Below are positions 2,439 to 49,139 of a stretch of 64,000 nt of DNA, in pieces. Origin of the DNA: Eubacteriales bacterium (lineage in GTDB: Bacteria; Bacillota; Clostridia; Oscillospirales; CAG-382). Both the position numbers and the translations under genes were made by a program. Position 1 is the stretch's first letter, and each line of letters opens with the position of its first letter. Location: assembly GCA_045538555.1 (NCBI GenBank), contig JAZSRP010000034.1, positions 430 through 64,429 of the forward strand, written 5' to 3'. The notes under the pieces are model-generated. The model saw only the letters and a list, made by a program, of their open reading frames with translations. It searched no databases and had not been told where the DNA came from.

Positions 2439-2462
2439 AAAAAATGCCTTTCTTTTGATATT

Positions 2463-2918: not shown

Positions 2919-2934
2919 TTTTTTGTATGTGTCC

Positions 2935-16900: not shown

Positions 16901-16929
16901 TTGACAAAATCAGTTGAGTGTTGTATAAT
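16901..16929 (+). promoter_or_regulatory. Exact consensus sigma-A promoter
   Basis: TTGACA (16901-16906), 17-nt spacer, TATAAT (16924-16929). About 300 nt upstream of the 17235 start. Confidence 0.75.
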
Positions 16930-17234
16930 TGTTCCAAACAATGGTGTAATATTCCGTGCATGCGCCTTTTTTTCTCAAAAATTTGTTTGTAGAAGGACAG
17001 ATGATGGGTTAACAGGGTGTTGTTTTGCCGTTATATTATTTATAATGGAAGGAACAAGAGGATCCCGGAGCATTGCTCGAGGATGCTTCGGTAAAAAACG
17101 GAATGTTACGTCAGGACCTGCAGCATGAGAGGATGGTGCCGCCTCGCAGGGTGATCAAAGCCCGCCTTGTGATCGTGGCTCTGTCGGCTTTTGCAAGCGG
17201 TCCGCAGTTAAAAAATCTAAAAAGGAGAAAACAC

Positions 17235-20200
17235 ATGAAAAGGACTCTCAAAAGATCCCTGGCAACAGTTCTGTCCGTCCTGATGGTAGTCACCAGCATG
17301 ACCGCTGTTCTTGCCCTGTTTGCAGGCGCATACAACACAGGTGATGCTGTAGTTACCGGCGACTTTGTGAAGGTTAACCACAACCTCACAGCTACCCAGA
17401 CCGACTATATCACGGCAGACAACATTACCAACTATGCCAACTCCATGAATGATGGCATCACCGCTGATCCTGACGGCGGATTCTCCTACGGCGCTCCTTG
17501 GTATGCTTTCTATCTGTCCAACGACAACTCCAAGTATACCATCGATCCCGCTACCCACACCGGTTATGCTACCTTTGACCTTGGCGCTGCAAAGCCCATC
17601 TCTGAGGTTGCAATGCAGGTTGCTCCCGCTATCGGTACCGCTTCTTCCATCAAAGCATACGTCTCTGACGACAATGCAACTTGGGAAGAGGTTGCTACCC
17701 TGACCTACGAGGGCACCGCAATCCAGACAATCTCCGCAGTATTTGAGACCGAGATCGTTGCTCAGTACTGGAGATTTGAGTTTGTTACCGACGGCATGTT
17801 CTTCATGGTCTCCGAGATCATGGTTTATGAGTACAAGGCCGCTGAGAAAGCAAACATCGGCTCCATCAACGCATACGACTGGACTGCAAATCTTCCCATC
17901 ATCCTCGCTTACGGCAGGGACAAGACCGTTGAGACCGCTGTTGGCGGCAACTGGTTTGCATGGTGGATCAAGATCAAGGCAGAGTGGAGCCAGGACGATC
18001 ACGCATTTGTTGTAAATGCAATTGATGGCGCTCCCGGCACCGAGTCTCATGACTATGAGACCTGGACCCTTGGCGAAAAAGAGGTTATCCTCCTTGCCAA
18101 CTCCGGCAACGTTGACGCTGCTTCCTATGCTGCAGCTTCTGCTCTTGCAGTAGGCGACAAGCTCTACCTCTACGGCTTTGATTTCACAAACGCATCCGTC
18201 AACAACCTCTCCACCGAGGCAGACGGCGTTTACACTTCCTCTGTGTACTTCTACACTCAGATGGCAGTGGAAGATGGTGCATATGATGTTCCCGACGTAG
18301 TATATCCCGGTTACTTCACCGATGTTGATGTTCCCGAATTTGCAACCGTTGAAAACATCATCGATGACACCACCGTCATCACCCACGATTATGCCGCAAA
18401 CACTTCTTACCCCGGCGACATCGCTGACGGTATTGCTCCCGATTCCGGATACACCACCGATTGGCGTTCTTATCCCAACGGAACCACCTCCACCCTGTTT
18501 GATCTGGGCGCAGAGCGCTCCGACATCGGCGGTGTGAGAGTATACCTCTGGCCCGCAAACCAGTCCGGTATCGTTCCTCCCGATGCAATCAACGTATATG
18601 CATCCTGCGACAACGTTTCCTACGCACTCATGGGCACATTCGATCTGTCTGATCCTTTCTACAGCGAGAAGAGCTCCGAAACCATCTGGGCTGAGCTCAA
18701 GTTTGAGAAATTCCTCAACGCTCGCTACATCAAGATCGAGTTTGTAAACAATGCATCCTTCTGCTTTGTTGGTGAGATTGAGATCTGCGCAATGGAAGAG
18801 ATTTCCGTTCAGTATTTCACCACCACCTATGAGTACAGCACCAGCTCCATCAACCTTATCTCCTACGCAATGGCAGATATCCTTGATGACTGCAACGCAA
18901 ACCTCAAGACACACGAGTACTGGAACTTTGCTCAGGTTGAGTGGAATGCGGCTACCAGCACCTACCAGGTAGCAGGCGTTTACACCGCTGAGGCAGGCAA
19001 AGATTTTGGTGATCTTGCAGTTCCCAAGTACGGCTTCATCATCGGTGCACATGCTTCCGGCGGCGACGAGGCAGCAGAGGCATTTGCAGCATTTATCGCT
19101 TCTCTCAGTGAGGGCGACGATCTGTACCTCTACGGCGCAGACCTTGTTGAACTCACCGAGGTTGGCACCGCTATTCCCGATGCTTACATCACCACATCTC
19201 CCGTAGCAGGCGAGACCGCATACAGACCTGAGGTTATTCCTCTGTACACCTCTGTTGGTTTTGCAGCTTCTGACTCCACCCTCTTTGTTAGAATCACCAA
19301 AGAGGACGGCACTGTTCTCTCCACCCTCCAGGATGTCGCTGCTTATATCAGAGGCATCGAGGTTGGCGACCAGACCGACTACAACTACTACTACGTGATC
19401 ACCGTTGATGCTGACGACGTTGTTACCGGTACCTACTACGTACTGGGCAGAGACAACGAGGGCGGCCTCAAGGGCGAGATTGAGATCCCCGAGGGCGGCT
19501 ACGCAATCGGTCTCAACGCAGGAAGCAGCTATGCTGCAGAGTTCCAGGAATTCGTTGTAGGCGACAGCGTTGTTCTTTACGGCGTTGACCTCGACGAGCT
19601 TGCTCAGAACCCCGGTGCAACCATCGTTGAAGATGATCCTGCAACCGAGGATGTGGATGAGTCCTCCGTGACCGCTTCCACCATTGATATTTCCGGCGCA
19701 TTCTTTGCACGCGGCCACGTACATACATGGGAGACCATCGTTCTGGAACCCACATGTACTGCTGACGGCTACACCTATGACAAGTGCTCCACCTGCGGAG
19801 AGATCGTTATTGACGAGTCCACACGTGTTGGTATGACCGGTCACGATGAGTCCGGCGAGATCCTCACCAAGGAGCCCACCTGTGTTGATGAGGGATACGA
19901 TTACCGCATCTGCGGCAACTGCAATGAAGAGCTTGTTATTGAAGGAACCTCCGTTCCCGCAACCGGCAACCACACCTATGGTGAGGGCATTGCTGTCAAC
20001 ACCAAGTTCCTCCAGAAGACCTGTGAGGTTTGCTCCGGTGTTATCTACACCGACAATGACGGCAACGTTGCAAAAGACATTGTTGTTTCTCACAGAAATG
20101 CTTACAACTGGGGCACCTATGAGGCAATGATCATCACCGGCGAGGGCAAGACTGTTACAGAAGTAATCGGTCAGTCTCCTCTCTGGTGGACTGTTACCGT

Positions 20201-20867
20201 TATCCAGAACGTTGACGGCGTATACCGTGCAGTTGGTTTCTATCAGAACGTAGCTGAGGTTTCTACCGTTACCGTTCCTGCTGACGGCTTCCTCCTCTAC
20301 ACCTTTGAGACCAACAGCGCTCACGCATATGCAAACGGCGGCGGTCTCCAGGGTCACTACTTCCTGCCCATCATCGACGTTGAGGCAACCGCTCCCTTTG
20401 CAGTTGATCCTTCTGTTGCCGCACCGGATCACATCTACGCAATCGAGGCGCCCGCAGCTGACATGACCGGCTACAATGCCGCAAAAGCAGCAGCAGAGGC
20501 ACTCAATGCTGATGATTACACTCCTGAGACATGGGCAATTCTTGAGGCAGCTCTTGCTGTTGACGTAAGCAACAAGAAAGAGTATGAGCAGGCAGCAGTT
20601 GACGCGGCAACCTCCGCAATCAACGCAGCAGTTCTTGGCCTTGAGGATGCAGTTGCAGACGTAGTATTTGGCGATATCGACGGCAACGGCGAGTTTGACG
20701 GCAACGACCTTGTTCTTGCACGTCAGGTTGACGCAGCTATGATCGAGATCGACCAGGCACTCCTTGATGCAATCGAAGTAAGCGGCGACGGTATCTTTGA
20801 TGGTGCTGACGTTGTACTTATGGTTCAGATGGACGCAGGCTTTATTGACGCTTGGCCCGCTGAATAA
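17235..20867 (+). CDS. Secreted multidomain surface protein: two discoidin/F5-8-type-C-like modules, Cys-rich repeats, C-terminal dockerin
   Basis: AAAGGAG Shine-Dalgarno before the ATG at 17235. Signal peptide MKRTLKRSLATVLSVLMVVTSMTAVLALFAGA. Discoidin-like blocks (...YWRFEFVTDGMFFMVSEIMVYEY; ...RYIKIEFVNNASFCFVGEIEICA). Three D.LYLYG.D modules. TC..GY.Y..C..C repeats. C-terminal dockerin Ca-loops GDIDGNGEFDGND and SGDGIFDGAD. Confidence 0.85.
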   Translation: MKRTLKRSLATVLSVLMVVTSMTAVLALFAGAYNTGDAVVTGDFVKVNHNLTATQTDYITADNITNYANSMNDGITADPDGGFSYGAPWYAFYLSNDNSKYTIDPATHTGYATFDLGAAKPISEVAMQVAPAIGTASSIKAYVSDDNATWEEVATLTYEGTAIQTISAVFETEIVAQYWRFEFVTDGMFFMVSEIMVYEYKAAEKANIGSINAYDWTANLPIILAYGRDKTVETAVGGNWFAWWIKIKAEWSQDDHAFVVNAIDGAPGTESHDYETWTLGEKEVILLANSGNVDAASYAAASALAVGDKLYLYGFDFTNASVNNLSTEADGVYTSSVYFYTQMAVEDGAYDVPDVVYPGYFTDVDVPEFATVENIIDDTTVITHDYAANTSYPGDIADGIAPDSGYTTDWRSYPNGTTSTLFDLGAERSDIGGVRVYLWPANQSGIVPPDAINVYASCDNVSYALMGTFDLSDPFYSEKSSETIWAELKFEKFLNARYIKIEFVNNASFCFVGEIEICAMEEISVQYFTTTYEYSTSSINLISYAMADILDDCNANLKTHEYWNFAQVEWNAATSTYQVAGVYTAEAGKDFGDLAVPKYGFIIGAHASGGDEAAEAFAAFIASLSEGDDLYLYGADLVELTEVGTAIPDAYITTSPVAGETAYRPEVIPLYTSVGFAASDSTLFVRITKEDGTVLSTLQDVAAYIRGIEVGDQTDYNYYYVITVDADDVVTGTYYVLGRDNEGGLKGEIEIPEGGYAIGLNAGSSYAAEFQEFVVGDSVVLYGVDLDELAQNPGATIVEDDPATEDVDESSVTASTIDISGAFFARGHVHTWETIVLEPTCTADGYTYDKCSTCGEIVIDESTRVGMTGHDESGEILTKEPTCVDEGYDYRICGNCNEELVIEGTSVPATGNHTYGEGIAVNTKFLQKTCEVCSGVIYTDNDGNVAKDIVVSHRNAYNWGTYEAMIITGEGKTVTEVIGQSPLWWTVTVIQNVDGVYRAVGFYQNVAEVSTVTVPADGFLLYTFETNSAHAYANGGGLQGHYFLPIIDVEATAPFAVDPSVAAPDHIYAIEAPAADMTGYNAAKAAAEALNADDYTPETWAILEAALAVDVSNKKEYEQAAVDAATSAINAAVLGLEDAVADVVFGDIDGNGEFDGNDLVLARQVDAAMIEIDQALLDAIEVSGDGIFDGADVVLMVQMDAGFIDAWPAE

Positions 20868-20909
20868 CATTTTTCGTAATCCAATATATTTTATAAAAGG
20901 AGAAACCCC

Positions 20910-21938
20910 ATGAAAAGAATCGCACTTATCCTTGCGGTTGCAATGATGGTATCCTGCTTCGCATGCGTTTTCGCATCTGCTGATGACTGTGTATTCACCT
21001 TTGCAACTGCCGGCATCGAGGACAACAACGTTGTATATCTCGGAACTACCACTGATGATATTCCCGATGATATCTTTGCTGTTGCTCTTCGCGTTGACAC
21101 CGCTGGCCAGCCCTTCTGCCGTTACAAGGTAGAGATTGCGTTTGACGCAACCAAGCTTGGCTACATCACTTGTACCGAGAGCGAAGGCGACTGCCTCCTC
21201 GGTATCTACGACCACACCACCGATGGTTACAGAAAAGTTAAGTACGACCTCTGCAACGACATGAATGCAGAAGCCGGCAAAATCATCGTAACCATGACCA
21301 ACGCTAGCAACCTCACCTACAAGCAGGGTCTGAAGACTCAGAACCTCACAATGGCATCCTTCATCGTTCTTTACTTCTACCCCCTCACCGATGAGGCATG
21401 CGACACCACTCTCAGCTGGACCTACACTGAGGTCAGAGATCAAGTTCCTTCGCTTCTTCCTTCTACCGGCGAGAACCTCACCCTCAAGATGAACGGCGGT
21501 GCTCCTGCAGCATCTGCTCCTCTTACTTCTCTTGGCGCTCTCGTTAACGAGGAGCTCGTAGGCCTCCGCTTCGGCGCTACCTACAACAGAATCGTTGAGA
21601 ACGGCGAAGTTACCGATCTCGGTATGATGCTTCTCCCCGCTGCTAAACTCGGCGATGATGAGCTCACTCTCGACTACATTGCAAACGGCGCAAACGGCGA
21701 TCTCGTTGCTAAGCTCTCTGCTAGAGGCATCGACGCTGACAGCTACGTTGCAAACCAGGCATTTGAGGACTATGCAAGCTTCACTTACACCTGCACTGTT
21801 ATCGGTCTTGAGGGCCACGAGGATGCAGACATTGTTGCTGTTCCCTACATCACCTATGATGGAACCGGCGCAATCTCTGAGTTCTATGCAGATGCAATGG
21901 TTAGAAACTTTGCTGCTGTTCTTGCTGCAAACGCTTAA
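20910..21938 (+). CDS. Secreted protein with cohesin-like N-terminal domain
   Basis: Signal peptide MKRIALILAVAMMVSCFACVFASA. Residues of about 25-165 (…FAVALRVDTAGQPFCRYKVEIAFDATKLGYITCTESEG…GKIIVTMTNAS…) follow the cohesin beta-sandwich pattern by eye. The C-terminal half is not recognised. Confidence 0.5.
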   Translation: MKRIALILAVAMMVSCFACVFASADDCVFTFATAGIEDNNVVYLGTTTDDIPDDIFAVALRVDTAGQPFCRYKVEIAFDATKLGYITCTESEGDCLLGIYDHTTDGYRKVKYDLCNDMNAEAGKIIVTMTNASNLTYKQGLKTQNLTMASFIVLYFYPLTDEACDTTLSWTYTEVRDQVPSLLPSTGENLTLKMNGGAPAASAPLTSLGALVNEELVGLRFGATYNRIVENGEVTDLGMMLLPAAKLGDDELTLDYIANGANGDLVAKLSARGIDADSYVANQAFEDYASFTYTCTVIGLEGHEDADIVAVPYITYDGTGAISEFYADAMVRNFAAVLAANA

Positions 21939-21955
21939 TTTGGGAGGTAGTTGTA

Positions 21956-22078
21956 ATGAAATATACTGCACCTGAATTTGAAGTTGTTATGTTCCAGACC
22001 GAGGATGTTATCACCCTCTCTCTCGCAATTGAAGCAAACGACAACACCGTTGTTGCTCCCAACAGCTGGTGGAACTAA
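21956..22078 (+). CDS. WW-tail small peptide, paralogue A (40 aa)
   Basis: Hand translation: MKYTAPEFEVVMFQTEDVITLSLAIEANDNTVVAPNSWWN. GGGAGG Shine-Dalgarno 8 nt upstream. Starts 17 nt after the cohesin-like gene stop. Paralogous to the peptides at 29809-30129. Confidence 0.75.
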   Translation: MKYTAPEFEVVMFQTEDVITLSLAIEANDNTVVAPNSWWN

Positions 22079-22108
22079 TTTAGTCACACACTAAATTACA
22101 ACACAAAA

Positions 22109-22133
22109 GGCGGTTCTTCGGAACCGCCTTTTT
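22109..22133 (+). terminator. Rho-independent terminator of the dockerin/cohesin/peptide operon
   Basis: ggcggttc-ttcg-gaaccgcc hairpin followed by TTTTT. Confidence 0.85.
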
Positions 22134-22162
22134 CTTTTCCTGTCTCGGGGGCAAGTCGATAT

Positions 22163-22421
22163 GTGAAGTTGTGAATGGAAAGGGCTTCTCATCCGCAGCA
22201 GCAGACATTCGAAATTTTGGGCTACACTTCTTCTTTTGTATATCAATTTTCGGTTTTTATCTCACAGTTGCAACCACTTTAAAAAGTTTTGTGTTACTTT
22301 TTCAAAAGTGACGAGCTTTGGGATAAGATTTTAAAATTTGATATTCATAGTGGGGAGTGTAGCCCGAAATTTTGAATACCCCTTGCTGCGGATGGGAAGC
22401 TGTTTTCGTTCACGACTTCAC
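22163..22421 (+). repeat. 66-nt imperfect inverted repeat pair flanking a 127-nt spacer (possible structured RNA or MITE-like element)
   Basis: Arms 22163-22228 and 22356-22421 match at 53 of 66 positions by hand alignment. Eight of the 13 mismatches would still pair as G-U in a + strand transcript. Confidence 0.7.
22281..22312 (+). repeat. Direct repeat copy 1 (contains small hairpin)
   Basis: aaaaagttttgtgttactttttcaaaagtgac. 31 of 32 positions identical to 22447-22478. Internal hairpin gttacttt-ttca-aaagtgac. Confidence 0.8.
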
Positions 22422-22446
22422 CCACCGACCAGCCCCGAAGGGCAAC

Positions 22447-26243: not shown

Positions 26244-28751
26244 TTACATCATAAAAAATGATACCAGCCATACGGGCAGCAGCCAAAACAGCTGAAAAGC
26301 CACTGCGTGGAGAGAGGTTATGGCACCTACGTCGCCTGTGATGGCAAGGAATGCAACTGCCGCAAAGGACAGAAAAACACTGACGGAGCTGATAATAAAA
26401 TTGCTTTTTGTAACGTGTTTTGCCTTGTCACAGAGAGCAAACATGGTCAAAAAGCTGTGAAGCGACGAGGAACAGACGATGCCGCTGTCCAGCCGTTGCA
26501 CCTCTCCCGCCACCTCCTGAGGGCTGTTGCTCCTCAGCACGGAGACAGGGCATTTTTTGAAAGAAACAGCTCTGTTTATCAGATCGTTGTTGATGTTGGG
26601 GTCAAGAGTCTTGATGCCTACGCAAAGATTGGCTTTGTACATCTCGCGCAAAAGTGCTTCAAAGAGAGGATTTACGGTATATTTGATGTACAGCTTGGCG
26701 GCGGGCTTGTCGTTGACAACCACGTACATGATGGAGCCGTTGGTGCGCTCGTATGCGTCGTCGCCGTCATCAACAGGGCAGTCAAAGCGGTATCTGCGCA
26801 TATATGACTTCTTGCCCAAAAAGTAGTTGCGGCCGTCCATTGCGATACAGAGCCCGTCATTGGCGCACTCAATGGTGCGGATAAGGGCGGGCGAATCAAA
26901 TTTTTCGGTAATAGTTGCGGCAAGAACCTTGGACAGAGGGCCTCCCACGTGTCCAAAAAGCTTTGCAAGATCGGTGAGAATGGCATCGATCCGAAAATCA
27001 CCGTACATACGTATATTGGTAATCTTTACCAGGTTGGCGGGATACACCTCGGTGTCTGCAAAGGACAGCACCGATGCCTGAGCGTATTCTTCCGATACGG
27101 CGTTGCCCACAAAAGCGGTGGAAAACCTCTTGCCCACACGGTTTGCGGAGATGAGGGGAAGGTTGTTGGCAAAAAAAGCGGTGGCGGGCATGCTTGCCGC
27201 AATGAGAATGGAAAAAGCGGCATAGGAATCAACCGGAGCATACCCCATCACAGCCAGAGTGACAAAGAGAGCCACTCCTGCCAAAAAGATGGCCGGAACC
27301 AAAAAGTTGAATATATCCTCGGACTTGGGACGTTTTTCGATCCTCTCCATAAATCCGTCAACAAAATCCGCTCTCTTGACAGTGTAGAGCTCGCTGTCCT
27401 CAAAGAGGTACTTGTAAAATTCGTCGGCTTCCTTTGCGTCGCTTCCCAGCTGGCAGGCAGTGTATTTTGGTTTTTTGACTGCCACCACACGGAAACAGCG
27501 CAGGTTCTTTTTTGCGTCCAACAAGTTGATGAGGGCGCTGCACAAGCAACAAAAAGCGGCGGGAAGATTGTACAACCGCAGGTCGATTGCCGACGGATCG
27601 GTAAACATTATCACCACCGAATACGCAGCGGCAAAAAACACAGAGATGGCCAAAAGACTGTCTGTAGAAAGCCGAAACGTGGTGATACCCTTGATACCGT
27701 TGCGGATAGAATCCAGCATGGTAAGAGCGATAAAGAACAAGAGCTGAAGGTCAATGAGGATATAAAGAATCCCGTATCTGCCCTGTTTTGTAAAATCAGA
27801 ATGAATGCTGCTGTCCTTGGTAGCCAGCTCCAAAAACAGGATGGCTGCCGTTAGCACGGAAACGATGATAAGCTTGAGCATGGACGTGCGGACGCGCTTT
27901 GTCAAAAGGGCGGAAATAACACCGTTTTGCTTGCGGTCTGTGTATCTCAGCTTTGTTTCCTCGGGCTCTCGAGAACGTTTTTTTGAGGATTCGGTCTGTT
28001 TTGCCAGTTGATCCAGACGTCCATCCTCGTCCTCCATCATTTCAAACGCCAGCCGCAGATTGATGTCTGTTTCGTCAAGTGCTTCTTCTCCCAAAAGGGT
28101 GAGTTTGTCGTCATCGGTAACAAATTTTACCTGACCTTCTGTTTCTTCTTCCTCAAAATGAAGATCACGTCCCGTGACTTTTTCAGTCAGCTCCTCATAT
28201 CCCGAGTCAAAGCTTGCCGTTTCCTGCTCCTTTTCCTCGGCTCCCACGCGGAGAGTGTCTCCCAACGGAAACATTTCCTCTTGGGTATATTCCTCAAATT
28301 TGGGAACCTCTGCCTCGTCCACAAAACGGTATTCCGCAAAAGCGGCCGGAGGCAGCTTTTCACCCTCGGACAGTGTGCGTGTCTTGGCGTCGTTGATCAT
28401 TTTGTACAGCTTTTCCACACGCTGGCTGGGCTTTTTTTCACTGCTGTCGGCAACGTATTCCAACAGCTCACTGCCCTCGTTTTGCTCTGCCAGCTTCATG
28501 CGGAGCTTTTGGGTGTCGGTGAGTTTGTCCGCCACAGGGCGGGTGCTGTACATATCGATCAGCTCGGCGGTCTCGGCGTTGATGCGCTTTGTGACCTTGG
28601 TCTGCTTTTTCTTTGACTGCTCGTCCGCTACAAGGGTTTTTTGGAGCTCGGGCTTGGGTGCGTCGCGCTCCAGCTTCATGTCGGACCGGTTTTTTTCCTC
28701 TGCCTGTCGCAGGATCTCAAGTATATCCGGTTGTTTTTTTTGATCGGCCAT
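26244..28751 (-). CDS. Degenerate P1B-type ATPase homologue with long acidic N-terminal region
   Basis: 835 aa. About 290 acidic or low-complexity residues, then TM helices. IAASMPATAFF sits where CPC-type ATPases have IACPCALGLA. SFADTEVYP replaces FDKTGTLT. GIKTLDPN replaces TGD. No GDGxND motif. Confidence 0.5.
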   Translation of the reverse strand: MADQKKQPDILEILRQAEEKNRSDMKLERDAPKPELQKTLVADEQSKKKQTKVTKRINAETAELIDMYSTRPVADKLTDTQKLRMKLAEQNEGSELLEYVADSSEKKPSQRVEKLYKMINDAKTRTLSEGEKLPPAAFAEYRFVDEAEVPKFEEYTQEEMFPLGDTLRVGAEEKEQETASFDSGYEELTEKVTGRDLHFEEEETEGQVKFVTDDDKLTLLGEEALDETDINLRLAFEMMEDEDGRLDQLAKQTESSKKRSREPEETKLRYTDRKQNGVISALLTKRVRTSMLKLIIVSVLTAAILFLELATKDSSIHSDFTKQGRYGILYILIDLQLLFFIALTMLDSIRNGIKGITTFRLSTDSLLAISVFFAAAYSVVIMFTDPSAIDLRLYNLPAAFCCLCSALINLLDAKKNLRCFRVVAVKKPKYTACQLGSDAKEADEFYKYLFEDSELYTVKRADFVDGFMERIEKRPKSEDIFNFLVPAIFLAGVALFVTLAVMGYAPVDSYAAFSILIAASMPATAFFANNLPLISANRVGKRFSTAFVGNAVSEEYAQASVLSFADTEVYPANLVKITNIRMYGDFRIDAILTDLAKLFGHVGGPLSKVLAATITEKFDSPALIRTIECANDGLCIAMDGRNYFLGKKSYMRRYRFDCPVDDGDDAYERTNGSIMYVVVNDKPAAKLYIKYTVNPLFEALLREMYKANLCVGIKTLDPNINNDLINRAVSFKKCPVSVLRSNSPQEVAGEVQRLDSGIVCSSSLHSFLTMFALCDKAKHVTKSNFIISSVSVFLSFAAVAFLAITGDVGAITSLHAVAFQLFWLLPVWLVSFFMM

Positions 28752-29764: not shown

Positions 29765-29792
29765 AAAAAGACACCTGAAAAGGTGTCTTTTT
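29765..29792 (-). terminator. Terminator of the small-peptide operon (bidirectional hairpin)
   Basis: aaaaagacacc-tgaaaa-ggtgtcttttt: an 11-bp stem with U-tracts in both orientations, 17 nt downstream of the peptide B stop. Confidence 0.85.
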
Positions 29793-29808: not shown

Positions 29809-29940
29809 TCAGTTGTCCCACCAAGCAGTAGGAGCTTTTGTGGTATTGTCACCCTCAACAACAGCCAGAGAAGCAGAAATGACATCTGTCATATCGTACT
29901 CAACGAAAGTGATCTTGGGCTCGGTGTAAATCTTGTTCAT
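29809..29940 (-). CDS. WW-tail small peptide, paralogue B (43 aa)
   Basis: Hand translation: MNKIYTEPKITFVEYDMTDVISASLAVVEGDNTTKAPTAWWDN. GAGAGAGG upstream. Shares its N-terminal block and DN-x7-WW tail with peptides A and C. Confidence 0.75.
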   Translation of the reverse strand: MNKIYTEPKITFVEYDMTDVISASLAVVEGDNTTKAPTAWWDN

Positions 29941-29982: not shown

Positions 29983-30129
29983 TCAATCCCACCAGTCGGG
30001 GGGCAGAGTGACGCCGTTGTCGCCGTCGGAAATTGCAAGTGACGCATCATTTGCAGGGGATGCGGATACAACGTCACGGAAATCATAACCGATGATATTG
30101 AGTTCGGGCTCCGAATAATACTTTTTCAT
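29983..30129 (-). CDS. WW-tail small peptide, paralogue C (48 aa)
   Basis: Hand translation: MKKYYSEPELNIIGYDFRDVVSASPANDASLAISDGDNGVTLPPDWWD. AAGGTGA Shine-Dalgarno 6 nt upstream. Confidence 0.75.
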   Translation of the reverse strand: MKKYYSEPELNIIGYDFRDVVSASPANDASLAISDGDNGVTLPPDWWD

Positions 30130-30190: not shown

Positions 30191-30219
30191 ATTATACCCC
30201 CAAAAACTCCTGTTGTCAA
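30191..30219 (-). promoter_or_regulatory. Exact consensus sigma-A promoter of the peptide C/B operon
   Basis: The - strand reads TTGACA (30219-30214), 17-nt spacer, TATAAT (30196-30191). About 55 nt upstream of the peptide C start. Confidence 0.75.
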
Positions 30220-30350: not shown

Positions 30351-31568
30351 TCATTTTTTTTCAAATAATTTCAGATCATCGTAGAGGCGGTTTCGTTTTT
30401 TTGCGCTTTTCATCACCTGTCCGATATCCGCCTCCTGCTTTTTGAACAATATCCGCATCAAGGACAAAAAAGGAATGTATATCCAAAACACGGGCAGAAG
30501 GATGGGGCATTTTTTTGTGATAGGGTATCGGTTGTACGCTTTTGTGTTGAGGCGGGAAATCATGGCGGAAAAAGCGGATTTGCGTCCCTTGTCCTCGCTT
30601 GACGCACCGCCCACAAAGTGTGAGCTCAGCCGTCTCTCTCTGCTCTGGTAAAAAAAGTTGCTTCCCTCCAGCAGATCCTCCGTGAGCCGATCCCACAGCT
30701 CCTCCTTTGTTCCGCAAAAAAACTCCGGCATGGGCATCCCCAGATGCTTGTGGCAGACCCCGCACAGGGCAGAACCAAACTTCCACATTCCGCAGGATTC
30801 AAAATCCTTTTTGTCCTCATCTGTCAGCATTTTGCTGTAATAATTTGCGCTGATTGCCCAGTCGCACAGCTGCCGCAGACCAACGCTGGAGGTGAGCATA
30901 TGCCGTTCTGTATGGAACAGCAGCGACAAAAGCTGAAATTTTGGTGCCAGCACGTTAAACTGCCTTCCCTTCAGAGCGGCGGTGCAGGTGCGGTCAAGGG
31001 CGGAATCAAAAAGCTTTTTTGAAAAATTTCCGCAATCGTTGTTTGGAAAAACAGATACGGAGCGGTGAAGTTCCACAAACACACCGTCCTTTTCCAGAGC
31101 GATGTGAAAATCATGATCCTCTGCCGCCTCCGATTGGCAAAAACCCATTTCACGCAGCAGCTCTGCGCCCTCCTCCAGCCGTTCCTCCGGCAGCAAAAGG
31201 TCAATATCTCCCAGCACTCTCAGCTCGGGGCGGGGATAGCAGGCGGCAACGCTTGCGCCCTTGAGCACAGATACGGGAATCCCGCTTTGGATGAGACGGG
31301 AGAGAATCTCCTCCTCTGTCTCAAGGAGCTTGTCTCCCTTGAGCATGGTGGAAACAGTGAGCGATTTGAGCTGTTTTATCAGATCGGCAGGAACCTCCCA
31401 CTCACTGCTGTGAGCGGTGAGCCCTCCCAAAAGCAGAGGCATGACACTGTGGCGCTTTGCCTCGGTCATCAGAGCACGCCAATCTGTTCCTTTTGCACAA
31501 AAGGGCACACAAACGCCAAAAAGTTCTTCTGCCAGCAGTGCCAGCAACAGGCGGTGTTCTTGGTTCAT
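30351..31568 (-). CDS. Uncharacterised nucleotidyltransferase family protein (NTP_transf_5 / PF14907-like)
   Basis: 405 aa. GGAGG Shine-Dalgarno. The N-terminus LLLALLAEELFG..., the catalytic-type LGDIDLLLPEE motif and the overall length fit this family as I remember it. Confidence 0.6.
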   Translation of the reverse strand: MNQEHRLLLALLAEELFGVCVPFCAKGTDWRALMTEAKRHSVMPLLLGGLTAHSSEWEVPADLIKQLKSLTVSTMLKGDKLLETEEEILSRLIQSGIPVSVLKGASVAACYPRPELRVLGDIDLLLPEERLEEGAELLREMGFCQSEAAEDHDFHIALEKDGVFVELHRSVSVFPNNDCGNFSKKLFDSALDRTCTAALKGRQFNVLAPKFQLLSLLFHTERHMLTSSVGLRQLCDWAISANYYSKMLTDEDKKDFESCGMWKFGSALCGVCHKHLGMPMPEFFCGTKEELWDRLTEDLLEGSNFFYQSRERRLSSHFVGGASSEDKGRKSAFSAMISRLNTKAYNRYPITKKCPILLPVFWIYIPFLSLMRILFKKQEADIGQVMKSAKKRNRLYDDLKLFEKK

Positions 31569-31610
31569 GCTCTTGCCTCCTTTTTTGATAAGTTATTGAA
31601 AATATCTTGA

Positions 31611-34115
31611 TCAGTCAACCACTCCCGAGCCCGCAATAACAGAAAAAATCTCTGCACCGTTGCGAAATCCTCTGGGTTTATAGTATGTTTTGTTTATAAA
31701 ATCAATGACAGAATCCGCATCCTCGCGTTTGACAAGAATCATGATGCATCCGCCAAGCCCTGCGCCGGAGAGCTGTGCCCCCAGAACGCCTTTTTGGGCA
31801 AGAACGCTGTCCACAAGTCCGTCAATATCGGCAGTGGAGCAGGCATATCCGCCCGGCTGATTGTGGATCTGTGCGTTTGACACCTTGGCGGGATGCTCGC
31901 TTTTCAGATCGTTGATGAGACGGTAGAGATACAGCTCGTTGGCGGAATAATCGTATTTTTTGTCCCCTGATGCCACGCGGTCGCCGTTGTGGCTGGTGTT
32001 CATCAGTTCGCCCAAGCGGGAAATATCTCCGCTTTTGAGACACCGGATACAAAATTCACTTCTCTCACACTCGGCGATGCCGTACAGAACCACACTGCGA
32101 ATATCATAAAACTCCGGCGGAGTGTGGGTTTTAAAAATTCTTTCGATACGGTCGGATTCCTCCGGGAGTGCCTGTCTTACCTCCTCTGCAGTCATCCGCT
32201 CGGGAAGGGTGATGAGCATCTCGTAGATTCTGGACGGGGGAACAGACAGAGTTTTGGGATTGACGTCCTTGAGCACTTTCATTTTTTCGGCATACTGCGG
32301 AAAATTCTTTTTAAGCAGCATCAGGCCAAACTCGTACCCTGCAATCTTTGAATTGAAAATATCCTTTGCTCCCGCGCTCTTTTTTGCCTCCACAAAGCTG
32401 TTGGCAACAATGAGACGGTAATCCTCGGGAAAAGGAACCGATTCTCCTACAGAGAACGGGTTGAAATAAAGATGGGTAATGCTTCCTGCGCTTCCGCATT
32501 TCATTGCGGCGTGGTCGCCTGCACCGCCCCGTGAGCCCACAAACCATTCTCCCTCACCGCACAGGCGTATAAATTCGCTTCGATCCAGCTCGATGCCGTT
32601 GAGGGCAACTGCCGCTTCCATGGTGGAGACCACAATGGAGGAGGAGCTGGAAAGTCCTGCTGCCATGGGGATGTTTCCCAAAAACATCATGTTCATGCCG
32701 CACAGAGCTTTTTTTCTGTCACCAAGCTGAAGCCGAAGGATGGCGGCCTTGACATAGTTGATCCAATCACCTTTGTGCTGTTCCACAACGGAGGTGATGG
32801 AGGCAGATTCAATAAATTCCAGCCAGTTTTCGGTGTCGTATTTTTTTATGTGATCCAGAATGGAAAAGCTATAATCCTCAAATCCATCCTTTACGTTGGA
32901 GATGGTAACAACATCGTCCTCGGTGGGCGAAACCGCCACCAGCATTTCACGGCTGATGGTGAGTACGTTGATGCTTCCGCCCCGATGCTCAATATGGCGT
33001 CCCATTACGTTGAGACGGCCGGGAGCCCTTGCGATCAAAATTTCTCTGTCGCCAAACCGCTCCAAAAACCGTTCCAGCAAAAGGATATAGCTTTCTCTGC
33101 GCTCCGCCAAAAGCCGGCTGTCGTTGCCGTATATCTCAACAAATTTTGCTTCCATACCACTGTCACGGCGGCGAATCCGATCCAAAAGCTCGCTTGCTTT
33201 CGGAATCCGGCGGCTCACGTGGGAAGCAAAGTATTTTTCAAGCTTTATCAGCTCCTCCATGGTGCTGTAGGTCAGCAGCATGTGGGGTTCTGTGACGGGA
33301 ACGATCTTTGTGCCGCCGTTGGCAGAAAGATCGTTGATGGCGTCTGTCATGTACAGCTCGCCCTGTGCGTTGTTTGAGCTGAGGTTGGACAGGGCAGACA
33401 ACGCAGTGTCCACGTCCACCAGATAAGTGGCGGAGTTGACGTATTTTCCCGACTCGATATCTTTGGGACTGAATTTGTGTCCGCAAAGCTCTGTGGGTAT
33501 CACGCTCGTCAGCTTTTTTGCAGATTCCAGCAGTTTTGCGCTCTTTTTCTCGCTGAGTCCAAAGGAACCGACAGCATTTTCAAGCTCCGATTCATCAAGG
33601 GGAAGCAGTGTGGAAATATGTCTCAGATACGAATCCATCTGCTCGATGATACCGCAGACCTTCCCGTTTTTCATCAGCACTCTGCCGCCGGAGGGGTTGC
33701 GGTCTTTTGGAGTAACTGCAAAAACAGCGCTGTCTCCCGGGCCAAATTCTTCTATCAGCCATTTAAAAACCAAAGGGTCGATGATCTTGTCGCCCATACA
33801 AACAAAAGCGTTGCCTGTATAACCCGTAGATCTCAGTGCCTTGAGTCCGATATAGGCGGCGTTTCCCGTACCGTTTTGTGTCTTTTGGTATGCGTACACC
33901 ACTCCCTCGACACCGTCGAGGCAGTCCATGACCTTGTCTGCTTTTGATCCCACCACCACCACAAAACGGGACACGCCCGCTTGCTTCAGGTTGTCAATAA
34001 GCCGCAGAATGGCAGGTCTTCCCGCAATTTCATAGCACACCTTGTGGGTACGGTCGTCCTTCATGCGGGTGCCTCTGCCGGCACAAAGAAGAATTGCCGC
34101 TGGAGAGCTGTTCAT
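31611..34115 (-). CDS. Bifunctional sugar-1-phosphate nucleotidylyltransferase / GHMP sugar kinase (Fkp-like architecture)
   Basis: 834 aa. N-terminal LCAGRGTRM nucleotidyltransferase signature. C-terminal galactokinase-type APGRLNVMGRHIEHRGG and GHMP motif PMAAGLSSSSS. Confidence 0.75.
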   Translation of the reverse strand: MNSSPAAILLCAGRGTRMKDDRTHKVCYEIAGRPAILRLIDNLKQAGVSRFVVVVGSKADKVMDCLDGVEGVVYAYQKTQNGTGNAAYIGLKALRSTGYTGNAFVCMGDKIIDPLVFKWLIEEFGPGDSAVFAVTPKDRNPSGGRVLMKNGKVCGIIEQMDSYLRHISTLLPLDESELENAVGSFGLSEKKSAKLLESAKKLTSVIPTELCGHKFSPKDIESGKYVNSATYLVDVDTALSALSNLSSNNAQGELYMTDAINDLSANGGTKIVPVTEPHMLLTYSTMEELIKLEKYFASHVSRRIPKASELLDRIRRRDSGMEAKFVEIYGNDSRLLAERRESYILLLERFLERFGDREILIARAPGRLNVMGRHIEHRGGSINVLTISREMLVAVSPTEDDVVTISNVKDGFEDYSFSILDHIKKYDTENWLEFIESASITSVVEQHKGDWINYVKAAILRLQLGDRKKALCGMNMMFLGNIPMAAGLSSSSSIVVSTMEAAVALNGIELDRSEFIRLCGEGEWFVGSRGGAGDHAAMKCGSAGSITHLYFNPFSVGESVPFPEDYRLIVANSFVEAKKSAGAKDIFNSKIAGYEFGLMLLKKNFPQYAEKMKVLKDVNPKTLSVPPSRIYEMLITLPERMTAEEVRQALPEESDRIERIFKTHTPPEFYDIRSVVLYGIAECERSEFCIRCLKSGDISRLGELMNTSHNGDRVASGDKKYDYSANELYLYRLINDLKSEHPAKVSNAQIHNQPGGYACSTADIDGLVDSVLAQKGVLGAQLSGAGLGGCIMILVKREDADSVIDFINKTYYKPRGFRNGAEIFSVIAGSGVVD

Positions 34116-34150
34116 GAGGTTGTCCTCCCTTTTTTTAAAAAAAGGATTTT

Positions 34151-35284
34151 TTATTTTTTGAGAAACGCTTTTATTTCATCTGCCACCTGTGTGATCTCTT
34201 CTGTTGTGAGATAGGGGTGCATTGGCAGAGAAAGACAGGTGTCCGTCACGCGGTTGGTGTTGGAAAAATCGCCCTTGTCAAATCCCGCATTTTTTACAGC
34301 GGTTTGAGAATGCATTCCTTTTGGATAATATACCATTGAGGGAATATTTTTTGATTTGAGGTGCTGCTGGAGAGCGTCCCTTGTTTTTCTGTCCTCAAGC
34401 AAAATGGTGTACTGCGCCCAGCTGGAAACAAATCCTTCGGGAACCAGCGGTGTCACCACCACGTCCTTCAAAAGCTCCGTGTATGTATGCGCAACACGGT
34501 TTACTTCATCGATCTCATAATCTCTGAAAGCGTGGAATTTTGGCAGCAGAATGGCTGCCTGCAGGGTATCAAGCCGTGAGTTGAGACCTGTCTGTCTGTT
34601 GTCATACTTGTCCTCAGGCGATCTGCCCTGAGCACGGATGGATCTCAAAACCTCGTCAAGCCCGTCGTCGTTGGTAAAAACAGCGCCGCCGTCGCCGTAA
34701 CAGCCAAGGGGTTTTGCGGGGAAGAAAGATGTTGTGGCGGCATCGCCAAAGGAGCATGCCTTGCGTCCGTTGATGCTTCCGCCAAAGCCTTGGGCTCCGT
34801 CCTCAAGCACCAAAAGCCCGTATTTTTTTGCAATGGCAATAATTTTTTCATAATCGGCGCACTGACCGAAAAGGTCAACGGGAATGATAACTTTGGGAGT
34901 GAGGCGCCCCTCTTCTATGGTGCGGATGATTGCCTTTTCCAGTGCCTCGGGGCACATGTTGAATGTACGGCTGTCAATATCCACCGTGATTGTCTCGGCA
35001 CCCAGTCCCATAGCGCAGTTTACCGTGGCAAAAAAGGTAAAATCGGGAGCAAACACAGCGTCGCCCTCGCCGATGCCCCATGCCTTGAGCACCAGAATAA
35101 GTGCATCGGTGCCGTTGGCGCAGGAAATACAGTGTTTTACACCAACATAGTCCGCCAGCTCCTTTTCAAGCTGCTCCACCTGGGGTCCAAAAATAAATCT
35201 TGTGCTGTTGATAACCTCGGCAATACCTGCGTCAATTTCTGATTTGAGCGCTTGATACTGTCTGGAAAGATCACGGAATTGCAT
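34151..35284 (-). CDS. DegT/DnrJ/EryC1-family PLP sugar aminotransferase (WbpE-like)
   Basis: 377 aa. Typical DegT layout (…FEKELADYVGVKHCISCANGTDAL…). Gene order with the WbpB/WbpD-like genes. Confidence 0.85.
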   Translation of the reverse strand: MQFRDLSRQYQALKSEIDAGIAEVINSTRFIFGPQVEQLEKELADYVGVKHCISCANGTDALILVLKAWGIGEGDAVFAPDFTFFATVNCAMGLGAETITVDIDSRTFNMCPEALEKAIIRTIEEGRLTPKVIIPVDLFGQCADYEKIIAIAKKYGLLVLEDGAQGFGGSINGRKACSFGDAATTSFFPAKPLGCYGDGGAVFTNDDGLDEVLRSIRAQGRSPEDKYDNRQTGLNSRLDTLQAAILLPKFHAFRDYEIDEVNRVAHTYTELLKDVVVTPLVPEGFVSSWAQYTILLEDRKTRDALQQHLKSKNIPSMVYYPKGMHSQTAVKNAGFDKGDFSNTNRVTDTCLSLPMHPYLTTEEITQVADEIKAFLKK

Positions 35285-35289
35285 AAAAA

Positions 35290-39318: not shown

Positions 39319-39348
39319 TTTTTTCCTCGCTTAAATACAATTTTTATT

Positions 39349-40668: not shown

Positions 40669-40701
40669 TTTTTGCCCTTTCGAAGCAACGAAAAATTATT
40701 A

Positions 40702-42393: not shown

Positions 42394-42402
42394 TCCGATT
42401 CC

Positions 42403-43632: not shown

Positions 43633-43644
43633 AAAAAGCACTCC

Positions 43645-44955: not shown

Positions 44956-44988
44956 GGTGTCTCCAAAGCCCAAAACGGGCAAACGTCA

Positions 44989-46170: not shown

Positions 46171-46198
46171 GACGCACCTCGACTTAAAAATTGTTTTT

Positions 46199-49085: not shown

Positions 49086-49139
49086 TATACAAATCCGCAC
49101 TGTTGCGGATCAAATTTCTTGCTTTTTCAGGAGACGGGA

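What the first reader, a model, noticed from the sequence alone, without database searches (positions are those of the whole stretch)
21956..22078. Third member of the WW-tail peptide family, translationally linked to the cohesin-like gene
MKYTAPEFEVVMFQTEDVITLSLAIEANDNTVVAPNSWWN starts 17 nt after the stop of the 20910-21938 gene. It has a GGGAGG Shine-Dalgarno and is followed by the operon terminator.

It aligns with peptides B and C. The leader is Y-T-x-P-E-F-x-V-V-x-F-x-x-E-D-V-I-T-x-S and the tail is D-N-T-V-V-A-P-N-S-W-W-N. The same seven residues separate DN from WW.

A family present three times in 64 kb, always beside cell-surface loci, suggests a function tied to the envelope or to surface-protein and glycan expression. 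The ending differs here (WWN, against WWD and WWDN in the other two). That variation would fit either cognate specificity or Asp/Asn-directed chemistry.
Basis: seen in the sequence. Interest (0 to 1): 0.7.

Follow-up and report, generated by a model that had tools for sequence, protein, structure and literature searches.

The report
Orphan LPP-type peptide precursor gene
The 40-codon ORF is a real, conserved gene for the precursor of a recently described class of modified peptides (linear polyphosphorylated peptides); here it lies far from its modifying enzymes, at the end of a cohesin/dockerin surface-protein operon, which hints at what these peptides are for.

Summary
Window 21956-22078 (+) encodes the stated 40-aa peptide, 17 nt after the 342-aa gene, with a GGGAGG SD and a strong terminator. 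Orthologues keep it under purifying selection (dN/dS 0.10-0.45).

It belongs to a large unnamed family (287 distinct peptides). Members share the leader Y-x-x-P-E-Φ-E-[IV][IV]-x-F-x-x-E-D-V-I-T-x-S and have hypervariable tails.

In 21 of the first-scan loci, and in 36 of 79 cassette-anchored loci, such peptides sit beside a cassette: HprK-like kinase, PqqD-type RRE, archaeal-type signal peptidase, PF14907 NTP-transferase, sometimes an ABC exporter. This is the LPP (linear polyphosphorylated peptide) RiPP system of Popov et al. 2026 (PMC13381572), in a Clostridial branch with its own leader consensus.

Peptide A is therefore best read as an orphan LPP-type precursor processed in trans. Predicted leader: residues 1-20. 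Predicted phosphorylation site: Ser22. The window holds no kinase, RRE or peptidase gene, so this is inferred.

The WW-core subfamily (40 distinct peptides) nearly always follows a ~135-aa C-terminal module of a secreted protein; here that protein is cohesin-like.

The three copies are one ancestral tandem triplet split by an inversion. The residue after WW varies, so Asp/Asn-specific chemistry is unsupported.

The parts
16901..16929 (+). Promoter-like site (TTGACA-17-TATAAT, 12/12) for the operon that ends with peptide A
17235..20867 (+). Gene for a large secreted protein with an F5/8 type C domain and a C-terminal dockerin. The longest ORF starts at 17073, but the likely start is the ATG at 17235 (MKRTLKRS..., signal peptide).
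   Evidence: Pfam F5_F8_type_C E=2e-11. The C-terminal 95 aa hit solved dockerins, 6kg9_A E=4e-4, plus 5lxv_B, 6kge_D, 4uyq_B, 2ccl_B. Residue 55 aligns with residue 1 of the L008 homologue.
20910..21938 (+). 342-aa secreted protein: signal peptide, cohesin-like domain (about residues 41-173), Gly/Ala/Pro linker, and a conserved ~135-aa C-terminal module (about 204-340) that is the constant upstream partner of WW peptides
   Evidence: No Pfam or NCBIfam hit. Profile against PDB: the top 8 hits are all cohesins. The C-terminal module lies upstream of WW peptides in L001-L003, L008, L009, L012-L016, L019 and L224.
21942..21947 (+). Shine-Dalgarno GGGAGG of peptide A, 8 nt before the ATG
   Evidence: conserved in L001-L003
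21956..22015 (+). Peptide A, predicted leader (aa 1-20, MKYTAPEFEVVMFQTEDVIT): YxxP RRE-binding motif (Y3, P6) and conserved T20, the predicted -1 residue
   Evidence: Leader logo from 287 peptides. Leader-only HMM 48 bits, E=2e-14. The cleavage position is inferred by analogy with LppA, which is cut after T-1 (PMC13381572).
22016..22078 (+). Peptide A, predicted core (aa 21-40, LSLAIEANDNTVVAPNSWWN) plus stop codon. Ser22 is the family-wide invariant Ser (97%) and the candidate phosphorylation site. The WW-subfamily core motif is S-L-A-x3-G-D-N-x4-P-x2-W-W.
   Evidence: the phosphorylation site is inferred from LppA Ser3 (PMC13381572)
22105..22132 (+). Intrinsic terminator-like hairpin ending the operon
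   Evidence: L001 has a hairpin of different sequence at the same place
29983..30129 (-). Peptide B (48 aa), a WW-subfamily paralogue with a 6-aa insertion that is shared with L008 copy 2, L220 and L222
29809..29940 (-). Peptide C (43 aa), a WW-subfamily paralogue
30191..30219 (-). Promoter-like site (12/12 consensus) of the separate B-C transcription unit; its terminator is at 29765-29792 (-)
30351..31568 (-). PF14907 (NTP_transf_5) protein, the same Pfam family as LppN/PsmN. It lies directly upstream of B/C, at the end of a polysaccharide locus. A functional link to the peptides is uncertain.
   Evidence: Pfam E=1e-41. Only 22-26% identical to cassette N proteins. The adjacency is conserved in relatives L220 and L222.

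Best explanation
Peptide A is a genuine small gene. It encodes an orphan precursor of an LPP-type RiPP (linear polyphosphorylated peptide), in a Clostridial branch of that system.

Shown:
- It is conserved as a coding sequence.
- It is placed to be co-transcribed with a dockerin protein and a cohesin-like protein.
- Its first 22 residues match, position by position, a leader shared by hundreds of small peptides.
- Members of that family recur directly upstream of a cassette: HprK-like kinase, PqqD-type RRE, archaeal-type signal peptidase, PF14907 NTP-transferase, sometimes with an ABC exporter.
- The cassette peptidase and RRE are homologous to the characterised LppS and LppB.

Inferred by analogy with LppA:
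- The RRE binds the Y3-x-x-P6 leader motif.
- The kinase adds one or more phosphates to the invariant Ser22.
- The NTP-transferase may extend the phosphate with sugar.
- The signal-peptidase-like enzyme removes the leader after Thr20.
- An MsbA-like exporter releases the roughly 20-aa WW core.

The window encodes no kinase, RRE or peptidase, so these steps would have to act in trans from elsewhere in the genome. This appears to happen in Ruminococcus flavefaciens Y1.

The WW core is conserved and always paired with one particular C-terminal module of a secreted protein. It therefore most likely acts at the cell surface together with that protein. That last step is the least certain.
For: Coding:
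- The ORF, SD, 17-nt spacer and stop are conserved in L001-L003.
- dN/dS is 0.10-0.45.

Operon: promoter at 16901 and terminator at 22105.

Family:
- 136 representative clusters in an exhaustive HMMER search.
- More than 119 genome loci.
- Leader logo Y97 P94 E89 E83 F95 E86 D98 I95 T88 S97 percent, with conservation collapsing after the Ser.

Cassette:
- PqqD at 49 bits against a cut-off of 23.4; the best NCBIfam hits are lasso PqqD chaperones; HprK/ScmC-like, S24/S26-like and PF14907 proteins.
- ABC exporter and ATP-grasp variants.
- At least 591 loci. Canonical order K-RRE-S-N in 30 of 79, all four genes in 37 of 79.
- A family peptide is present in 36 of 79 loci, mostly directly upstream.

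Same leader: a model built only from cassette-adjacent peptides finds A at E=2.4e-10.

Identity with LPP:
- PMC13381572 defines the same gene set and precursor architecture.
- LppS against the cassette peptidase model gives E=1e-18; that paper's Ruminococcus SpI gives 9e-37; LppB gives 3e-4.

In-trans precedent:
- Five assemblies have a cassette on one contig and orphan pairs on others.
- The R. flavefaciens Y1 cassette has no adjacent precursor.

Surface link:
- The WW peptide pairs with the c342 C-terminal module in 11 of 11 pairs tabulated, plus L012 and L224.
- Upstream partners are enriched for signal peptides, 55 of 96 against 44 of 198.
Against: - No kinase, RRE or signal-peptidase homologue lies in the 64-kb window, and none lies within the 8 kb fetched, or on the available contig, of any of the roughly 15 WW loci. 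Whether the WW-bearing genomes have the cassette at all could not be determined.
- No WW-type peptide was found next to a cassette.
- The published LPP leader consensus (YxxPxVLxHQxIxFETxxS) is not matched literally. Here the Tyr is 18 rather than 16 residues before the Thr, and the Ser is at +2 rather than +3. Two bona fide LppA sequences are not detected by the leader model (E>7).
- The window's PF14907 protein is only 22-26% identical to cassette N proteins. Its adjacency to B/C can be explained by the inversion.
- No modification has been shown for any member of this Clostridial branch.
Confidence: 0.6

Rival explanations
1. An unmodified small protein that works directly with the upstream secreted protein, for example by binding, chaperoning or regulating its ~135-aa C-terminal module. 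In this lineage no RiPP machinery is involved, and the leader-like part is kept only by descent or as a structural strand.
For: - The pairing with the upstream gene is tight and conserved: median spacer 18 nt in 129 of 147 cases.
- Tail type follows the upstream C-terminal type: WW with the c342 module, and ...GGDIQIP tails with the T2 module.
- No cassette lies in the window or near any WW locus.
- The WW core is much more conserved than other tails.
Against: - The peptide is acidic and has no signal peptide, while its partner is exported by Sec. Without a dedicated exporter the two would be in different compartments.
- The leader is conserved position by position with cassette substrates, including the YxxP RRE motif and the T-x-S junction. 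That is hard to explain if no RRE or peptidase reads it.
- The tail shows no sequence similarity to the upstream protein.
Confidence: 0.2
2. A secreted peptide pheromone. The processed WW core is sensed by a receptor and reports expression of the surface-protein operon. This concerns the function of the product and is compatible with LPP-type maturation.
For: - L024 has six tandem precursors and the cassette next to a divergent LytTR response regulator and GHKL histidine kinase.
- The cores are short, and each genome carries many paralogues.
- From my own knowledge: type II ComS/XIP competence pheromones of streptococci carry a WW motif near the C-terminus.
Against: - No sensor kinase or Rgg/ComR-type regulator lies near A, B or C in the window.
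- The two-component pair was seen in one locus only.
- The resemblance to XIP is limited to WW and was not tested.
Confidence: 0.1
3. A lasso peptide precursor: cleavage before Ser22, a macrolactam between Ser22 and Asp29 (an 8-residue ring), and the two Trp acting as steric plugs.
For: - A YxxP leader motif with Thr at -2 relative to Ser22, Asp at core position 8, and bulky WW near the C-terminus.
- One family member weakly hits a lasso leader model: NF033528, E=0.022.
Against: - No lasso cyclase or B2 protease was found in the window or in the cassette loci whose neighbouring genes were scanned.
- The window's Asn-synthase-like gene scores 35 bits against the 300-bit cut-off of the macrolactam cyclase model.
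- Seven published rumen lasso precursors score 4 bits or less on the leader model, against 48 bits for A.
- Most family tails are too short (median 14 aa) and lack an acidic residue at positions 7-9.
- The spacing from the junction to GDN varies within the WW subfamily.
Confidence: 0.03
4. A chance ORF or a non-coding terminator-proximal element.
For: It is only 40 codons long and was not named by any source.
Against: - It is conserved in frame with silent substitutions.
- The SD is retained.
- The family counts hundreds of members at E down to 1e-23.
- The region has no Rfam match.
Confidence: 0.02

Closest known systems
LPP, linear polyphosphorylated peptides (lpp clusters; Popov et al., Nat Commun 2026, PMC13381572)
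   Same: [quoted passage not shown]
- The same precursor design: short peptides with a conserved N-terminal YxxP leader, a Thr at the junction, a Ser just after it, and hypervariable C-termini.
- The same association with polysaccharide loci.
- LppS and LppB are detectably homologous to the cassette proteins found here.
   Different: - The characterised system is from Bacilli (Paenibacillus). The paper does not mention Clostridia, orphan precursors or surface proteins.
- The leader consensus here differs: Y at -18 rather than -16, DVIT rather than FET before the junction, and Ser at +2 rather than +3. It is not detected by, and does not detect, LppA.
- Most precursors here lie outside the cluster, as the last gene of surface-protein operons.
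- Peptide A has no lpp gene within 64 kb except a distant PF14907 protein.
Phosphorylated and glycosylated lasso peptides of Firmicutes (paeninodin, pseudomycoidin; PMC6993621, PMC8498205)
   Same: - An HprK-family kinase phosphorylates a Ser of the precursor.
- A PF14907-type NTP transferase (PsmN) is needed to add hexose to the phosphate.
- A discrete RRE reads a [Y/W]xxP leader.
   Different: - There is no macrolactam cyclase and no B2 cysteine protease.
- The leader peptidase is a signal-peptidase homologue.
- The kinase target in lasso peptides is the C-terminal Ser, whereas this family has its conserved Ser at the leader-core junction.
- Lasso precursors are not detected by the leader model.
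RiPP systems with many precursors processed in trans by one enzyme set (for example prochlorosins with ProcM; from my own knowledge)
   Same: One maturation locus serves numerous unlinked precursor genes that share a leader and differ in the core.
   Different: The chemistry is different. In addition, the orphan precursors here are not scattered at random: each is attached to the 3' end of a gene for a secreted protein.
Cohesin-dockerin cellulosome operons of Ruminococcus and related Clostridia
   Same: The operon that carries peptide A encodes a dockerin-bearing protein and a cohesin-like protein.
   Different: To my knowledge no small peptide gene is a described part of cohesin-dockerin systems. 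The peptide's constant partner is not the cohesin-like domain but the C-terminal module behind it, which also occurs on a nuclease-type protein.

Membership tests
LPP RiPP (PMC13381572) | Core gene set: SpI-like peptidase, discrete RRE, HprK-like kinase, NTP transferase, MsbA-like transporter | tested here: met
   For the peptide family as a whole: all four enzymes occur in 37 of 79 cassette loci, in the order K-RRE-S-N in 30 of them. An ABC exporter is present in L132 and L175. LppS matches at E=1e-18 and LppB at 3e-4.
LPP RiPP (PMC13381572) | The precursor is encoded within, or next to, the cluster | tested here: not met
   The window has no kinase, RRE or peptidase homologue. It has only a distant PF14907 protein, beside B/C and not beside A. 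No WW locus has a cassette within the sequence fetched.
LPP RiPP (PMC13381572) | Precursor of 35-200 aa with a conserved N-terminal region carrying a YxxP RRE motif, and a variable C-terminus | tested here: met
   Peptide A is 40 aa with Y3-T-A-P6. The leader is conserved across 287 peptides and conservation collapses after Ser22.
LPP RiPP (PMC13381572) | Literal leader consensus YxxPxVLxHQxIxFETxxS | tested here: not met
   The consensus here is YxxPEΦE[IV][IV]xFxxEDVITxS. Two LppA sequences score E>7 on the leader model.
LPP RiPP (PMC13381572) | RRE-dependent cleavage after Thr-1 by the SpI-like peptidase | not testable with these tools
   Thr is conserved at 88% two residues before the invariant Ser; in peptide A this is T20.
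LPP RiPP (PMC13381572) | Polyphosphorylation of a Ser at the start of the core | not testable with these tools
   The Ser is 97% conserved (S22 in A). The kinase-like proteins keep an invariant SGTGKST P-loop motif.
LPP RiPP (PMC13381572) | Co-localisation with capsular polysaccharide loci | tested here: inconclusive
   B and C abut the polysaccharide locus at 30351-48546, and the same holds in L220 and L222. However, this adjacency results from an inversion, and A itself lies in a cohesin/dockerin operon.
Lasso peptide | Asn-synthetase-like macrolactam cyclase and B2 transglutaminase-like protease in the cluster | tested here: not met
   Neither was found in the cassette loci scanned. The window's Asn-synthase-like protein scores 35 bits against a 300-bit cut-off.
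Lasso peptide | The leader is related to lasso leaders | tested here: not met
   Seven rumen lasso precursors score 4 bits or less on the leader model. Only the YxxP motif is shared.
Cohesin domain (the 342-aa neighbour) | Sequence similarity to cohesin modules | tested here: inconclusive
   Pfam Cohesin does not hit. In the profile search against PDB the top 8 hits are all cohesins, but at E 0.005-0.6. The AlphaFold models are unusable, with pLDDT 37 and 46.
Dockerin (the 1264-aa neighbour) | Duplicated Ca-binding loop-helix repeat at the C-terminus | tested here: met
   GDIDGNGEFDGND...SGDGIFDGAD is visible in the sequence. phmmer hits solved dockerins at E=4e-4 to 3e-2.

The most novel reading that the evidence does not exclude
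The cores of these LPP-type peptides are cognate ligands of the C-terminal modules of the surface proteins they are co-transcribed with. Once exported, and possibly fixed to the wall through the phospho-sugar handle, each peptide type would mark where its partner protein docks. This would be a peptide-coded anchoring or assembly system running in parallel to cohesin-dockerin, and it would give LPPs their so far unknown biological role.

Pointers in this direction:
- Tail type follows the upstream module type: WW with the c342 module, ...GGDIQIP with the T2 module, and Gly/acid-rich tails with the T3 module.
- Spacers are about 18 nt.
- Some genomes have lipoproteins that display, at the end of a long Ser/Thr linker, the very same tail as the adjacent peptide. 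In L090 the ten residues are identical while the DNA matches at only 25 of the last 36 nt, mostly differing at silent positions.
Probability: 0.15. Interest if true: 0.85.

Novelty: new variant of a known kind. Interest (0 to 1): 0.62.

Why it matters
LPPs were described only in 2026, from Bacilli, and the authors state that their biological role is unknown.

This window and its relatives add four points:
- A much larger Clostridial branch exists. It has at least 591 cassette loci among species-representative genomes, mostly Ruminococcus, Oscillospiraceae and Lachnospiraceae of animal guts.
- This branch has its own leader consensus.
- Most of its precursors are not in the cluster. They sit as the last gene of operons for secreted surface proteins, including cohesin/dockerin proteins of fibre-degrading bacteria.
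- Core type and partner module go together.

This turns the open question of what LPPs are for into testable experiments on surface-protein display in rumen and gut Clostridia. It also shows that cluster-centred genome mining misses most precursors of this class.

Tried and rejected
- **Structure of the 342-aa protein and of its C-terminal module.** Two AlphaFold runs gave pLDDT 37 and 46. That is too poor for fold searches, so none were run.
- **Lasso peptide reading.** Rejected; see the rival explanations.
- **Immunity-gene idea.** I asked whether the genes after B/C were a thiostrepton-type rRNA methyltransferase and an EF-G-like protection protein. They are a bona fide RlmB (220 bits against a 160-bit cut-off) and an EF-G (772 against 583). 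The synteny exists only in the three closest genomes of 80 sampled.
- **PF14907 next to B/C as proof of a local modification system.** Weakened by 22-26% identity to cassette N proteins and by the inversion. Kept only as a possibility.
- **Tail mimicry of the upstream protein.** Real in four lipoprotein pairs, but absent for A and all WW pairs.
- **Single partner domain.** The C-terminal module of the 342-aa family is not detected in the big LRR/BspA-type upstream family. The upstream proteins have at least six C-terminal types.
- **Scans that found nothing.** The search for related loci with the peptide alignment failed because no stretch was conserved enough. The same tool with the 342-aa protein found nothing.
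- **Word-indexed searches.** They returned only 5 hits each.
- **Family libraries.** Pfam and NCBIfam have no model for the peptides.
- **Literature.** Searches by sequence string, HprK/ScmC terms and PF14907 did not find the family. The LPP paper surfaced only with 'signal peptidase' plus 'RRE-Finder'.

Full report
**1. The observation**

- The preceding 342-aa gene stops at 21938.
- GGGAGG lies at 21942-21947, and the ATG follows 8 nt later.
- A 12-bp-stem terminator lies at 22105-22132.
- A perfect-consensus promoter at 16901-16929 precedes the 1264-aa gene. The unit therefore reads promoter, 1264-aa gene, 342-aa gene, peptide A, terminator.

Peptides B (29983-30129, minus strand) and C (29809-29940, minus strand) are real. 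They form their own bicistronic unit with a perfect promoter (30219-30191) and a terminator (29792-29765).

The three peptides align at 43-45% identity.

**2. It is a gene**

Three metagenome contigs carry orthologues that are 65-83% identical. All keep the same 342-aa gene, the 17-nt spacer, the SD and the stop. One has a terminator hairpin of a different sequence at the same place.

Pairwise dN/dS among five 40-aa orthologues is 0.10-0.45, with synonymous sites near saturation.

No Rfam family and no tRNA lies in the window.

**3. The family**

Pfam and NCBIfam have no model for the peptides. Public sources call them 'hypothetical protein' or give no name.

An exhaustive HMMER search found 136 representative clusters, nearly all 30-67 aa. 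Many match only the first 22 positions. A degenerate DNA pattern for the leader hit more than 119 genome loci. Most are in Ruminococcus flavefaciens, other Ruminococcus, Oscillospiraceae and Lachnospiraceae, with several copies per genome.

Across 287 distinct peptides the leader is as follows (percent conservation in brackets):
Y(97)-x-x-P(94)-E(89)-Φ-E(83)-[IV]-[IV]-x-F(95)-[ED]-x-E(86)-D(98)-[VI]-I(95)-T(88)-x-S(97).

Conservation collapses right after the Ser. The tails have a median length of 14 aa and a net charge of about -2.8. They are rich in G, D, E, P and N and almost free of Cys.

Peptide A fits every conserved position; the boundary Ser is S22.

**4. The maturation cassette**

Clustering all ORFs around the peptides showed that, in 21 loci, the peptides are followed by four conserved genes:
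- an HprK/ScmC-like P-loop protein;
- a PqqD-family RRE (PF05402, 49 bits against a cut-off of 23.4; the best NCBIfam hits are lasso PqqD chaperones);
- an S24/S26 protein of the archaeal signal-peptidase type;
- a PF14907 NTP-transferase.

Variants add an ABC exporter (L132, L175) or TupA-like ATP-grasp domains (L108). L024 has six tandem precursors beside a LytTR/GHKL two-component pair.

Using the kinase-like protein as a probe gave at least 591 genome loci. The canonical order is K-RRE-S-N. In 36 of 79 sampled loci a family peptide is present, mostly directly upstream.

A leader model built only from 23 such cassette-adjacent peptides picks out A, B and C, and nothing else, in the window.

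**5. This is the LPP system**

Popov et al. (Nat Commun 2026, PMC13381572) describe linear polyphosphorylated peptides.
- The clusters encode an archaeal-type signal peptidase (LppS), a discrete RRE (LppB), an HprK-like kinase (LppK), an uncharacterised NTP transferase (LppN) and an MsbA-like transporter.
- The clusters are often embedded in capsular polysaccharide loci.
- Precursors are 35-200 aa, with a conserved N-terminus (YxxPxVLxHQxIxFETxxS) and variable C-termini.
- LppK polyphosphorylates core Ser3. LppS, presented with the substrate by LppB, cuts after Thr-1.
- The biological role is unknown.

Direct comparison with the cassette found here:
- LppS matches the cassette peptidase model at E=1e-18.
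- That paper's own Ruminococcus SpI, which sits in a minor network cluster, matches at 9e-37.
- LppB matches the RRE model at 3e-4.
- Two LppA sequences are not detected by the leader model (E>7).

The junction geometry also differs: Y at -18 and S at +2 here, against Y at -16 and S at +3 in LppA.

The paper does not mention Clostridia, orphan precursors or surface proteins. Its dataset dates from February 2019.

I therefore file the family as a Clostridial variant of LPP, not as a member in the strict sense of the published consensus.

For related enzymes, PsmK phosphorylates and PsmN is required for hexosylation of the phosphate in pseudomycoidin (PMC6993621).

**6. What is special about peptide A**

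(a) It is an orphan.
- The window has no kinase, RRE or peptidase homologue.
- None of the roughly 15 WW loci shows one within the sequence fetched.
- Orphans are the rule in this branch. Five assemblies hold a cassette on one contig and orphan pairs on others. The cassette of the cultured strain R. flavefaciens Y1 has no adjacent precursor, while at least four orphans lie elsewhere in its genome.

(b) Orphans are not placed at random.
- 129 of 147 peptide genes follow a same-strand ORF. The median spacer is 18 nt, and 132 of 147 have an SD-like motif.
- The upstream proteins are large and enriched for signal peptides. Many carry LRR_5/BspA or DUF285 repeats.

(c) The WW subfamily has an unusually conserved core.
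- It counts 40 distinct peptides.
- The core motif is S-L-A-x3-G-D-N-x4-P-x2-W-W.
- Its constant upstream partner is a ~135-aa C-terminal module. The module occurs on the cohesin-like 342-aa protein here, on 229-, 592- and 598-aa proteins elsewhere, and on a 944-aa Endonuclease_1 protein in L224 at E=5e-45.

The 342-aa protein's N-terminal half is cohesin-like: the top eight PDB profile hits are all cohesins, though individually weak. The 1264-aa protein ends in a dockerin.

**7. The three copies**

In L008 the A-like, B-like and C-like genes are tandem. The B-like copy shares B's 6-aa insertion. The three genes lie after homologues of the 1264-aa and 342-aa genes and before RlmB.

L228 shows the undisturbed order: peptide, RlmB, 843-aa protein, EF-G, ALGX, polysaccharide locus.

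The window, L001/L222 and L220 have the block B-C-RlmB-835aa-EF-G-ALGX inverted. This puts B next to the PF14907 gene that ends the polysaccharide locus.

RlmB and EF-G are housekeeping genes. Their synteny with the peptides is confined to the closest genomes.

The nearest species-level genomes are uncultured Eubacteriales/Oscillospiraceae MAGs from animal guts, with EF-G 74-80% identical.

**8. Mechanism, and what is inferred**

Shown:
- coding conservation;
- operon signals;
- leader identity with cassette substrates;
- homology of the cassette to LPP enzymes;
- conserved pairing with the C-terminal module.

Inferred by analogy with LppA:
- RRE binding at Y3/P6;
- phosphorylation at S22;
- cleavage after T20. 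The -3/-1 rule of signal peptidases would equally allow cleavage after S22;
- export.

Speculative: the exported core acts on or with the partner module at the cell surface.

**9. Verdict**

The finding is real and more interesting than a stray small ORF. However, its kind has been known since 2026. It is a new variant of that kind: a Clostridial branch, orphan placement on surface-protein operons, and a WW core with a dedicated partner module.

Noticed in passing
window 22140-22445: A ~300-nt imperfect palindrome lies in the spacer between peptide A's terminator and the convergent ALGX gene. Its arms are 22148-22250 and 22334-22436 (75% complementary), and there is a 32-nt direct repeat at 22281 and 22447. 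It folds into one long hairpin (-156 kcal/mol, z=-16.5) and is absent from the orthologous spacer in L001. It looks like a MITE-like insertion at the inversion junction.
   Followed up: partly
L090 5778-6278(-) and 5626-5769(-); L121 2948-3551; L030 5380-6075; also L095 and L044: In some loci the gene just upstream of the peptide is a small lipoprotein: a lipobox, a long Ser/Thr/Ala linker, and an extreme C-terminus that repeats the peptide's tail. In L090 both end in PIELPLVPLR, yet the DNA matches at only 25 of the last 36 nt, mostly differing at silent positions. Selection, not recent duplication, keeps the two tails identical. The L030 pair sits directly before the cassette.
   Followed up: partly
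L026, L071, L101, L113, L130 (T2 type); L064, L078, L114, L124, L127 (T3 type); all WW loci: Peptide tail type goes with the C-terminal type of the upstream protein. Tails ending ...GGDIQIP or ...GDIHIS follow proteins ending ...VTVSS..L.C.LDFE. Gly/acid-rich tails follow the ...RPYLVY.DKNG..TVYG type. WW tails follow the c342 module. The large T1 type is not specific to one tail.
   Followed up: partly
L024 66-5928: Six tandem precursor genes (2215-3223) are followed by the full K-RRE-S-N cassette. A divergent LytTR response regulator and GHKL histidine kinase lie next to them, which suggests peptide-responsive regulation.
   Followed up: no
L175 5986-10313 (Ruminococcus flavefaciens Y1): A cultured strain has the cassette as K-RRE-S-ABC exporter-N, with no recognisable precursor gene next to it. 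At least four orphan precursor/surface-protein pairs lie on other contigs (L084, L090, L111, L121). This makes it a convenient experimental system.
   Followed up: partly
L108 2940-5937: The PF14907 protein is fused to a TupA-like ATP-grasp domain and is followed by a second ATP-grasp gene. This hints at further modification chemistry in some clusters.
   Followed up: no
window 17217-21971 (-): A 1584-aa open frame runs antisense to the dockerin and cohesin-like genes. It clusters only with equally antisense frames in orthologous loci, so it is an artefact of codon composition and not a gene.
   Followed up: yes
window 26244-28751 (-): An 835-aa protein without any Pfam domain is conserved between RlmB and EF-G in all close relatives (L007, L008, L009, L016, L220, L222, L228). 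Its only weak hint is a clan AA aspartic protease model at E=0.02.
   Followed up: no
window 30351-48546 (-) and 49011-60217 (+): Two back-to-back polysaccharide loci. The first has a sugar-kinase/NTP-transferase fusion, DegT aminotransferase, epimerase, UDP-sugar dehydrogenase, flippase, an Asn-synthase-like amidotransferase and four GT1 genes. The second has LicD, three GT2, EpsG and a flippase, followed by a 1527-aa protein with a NAGPA phosphodiester-glycosidase domain.
   Followed up: no
protein P0018 (2408 aa): A very large protein matched the first part of the leader profile (positions 2-14) in seven separate stretches. It therefore carries a repeated YxxPE-like motif.
   Followed up: no
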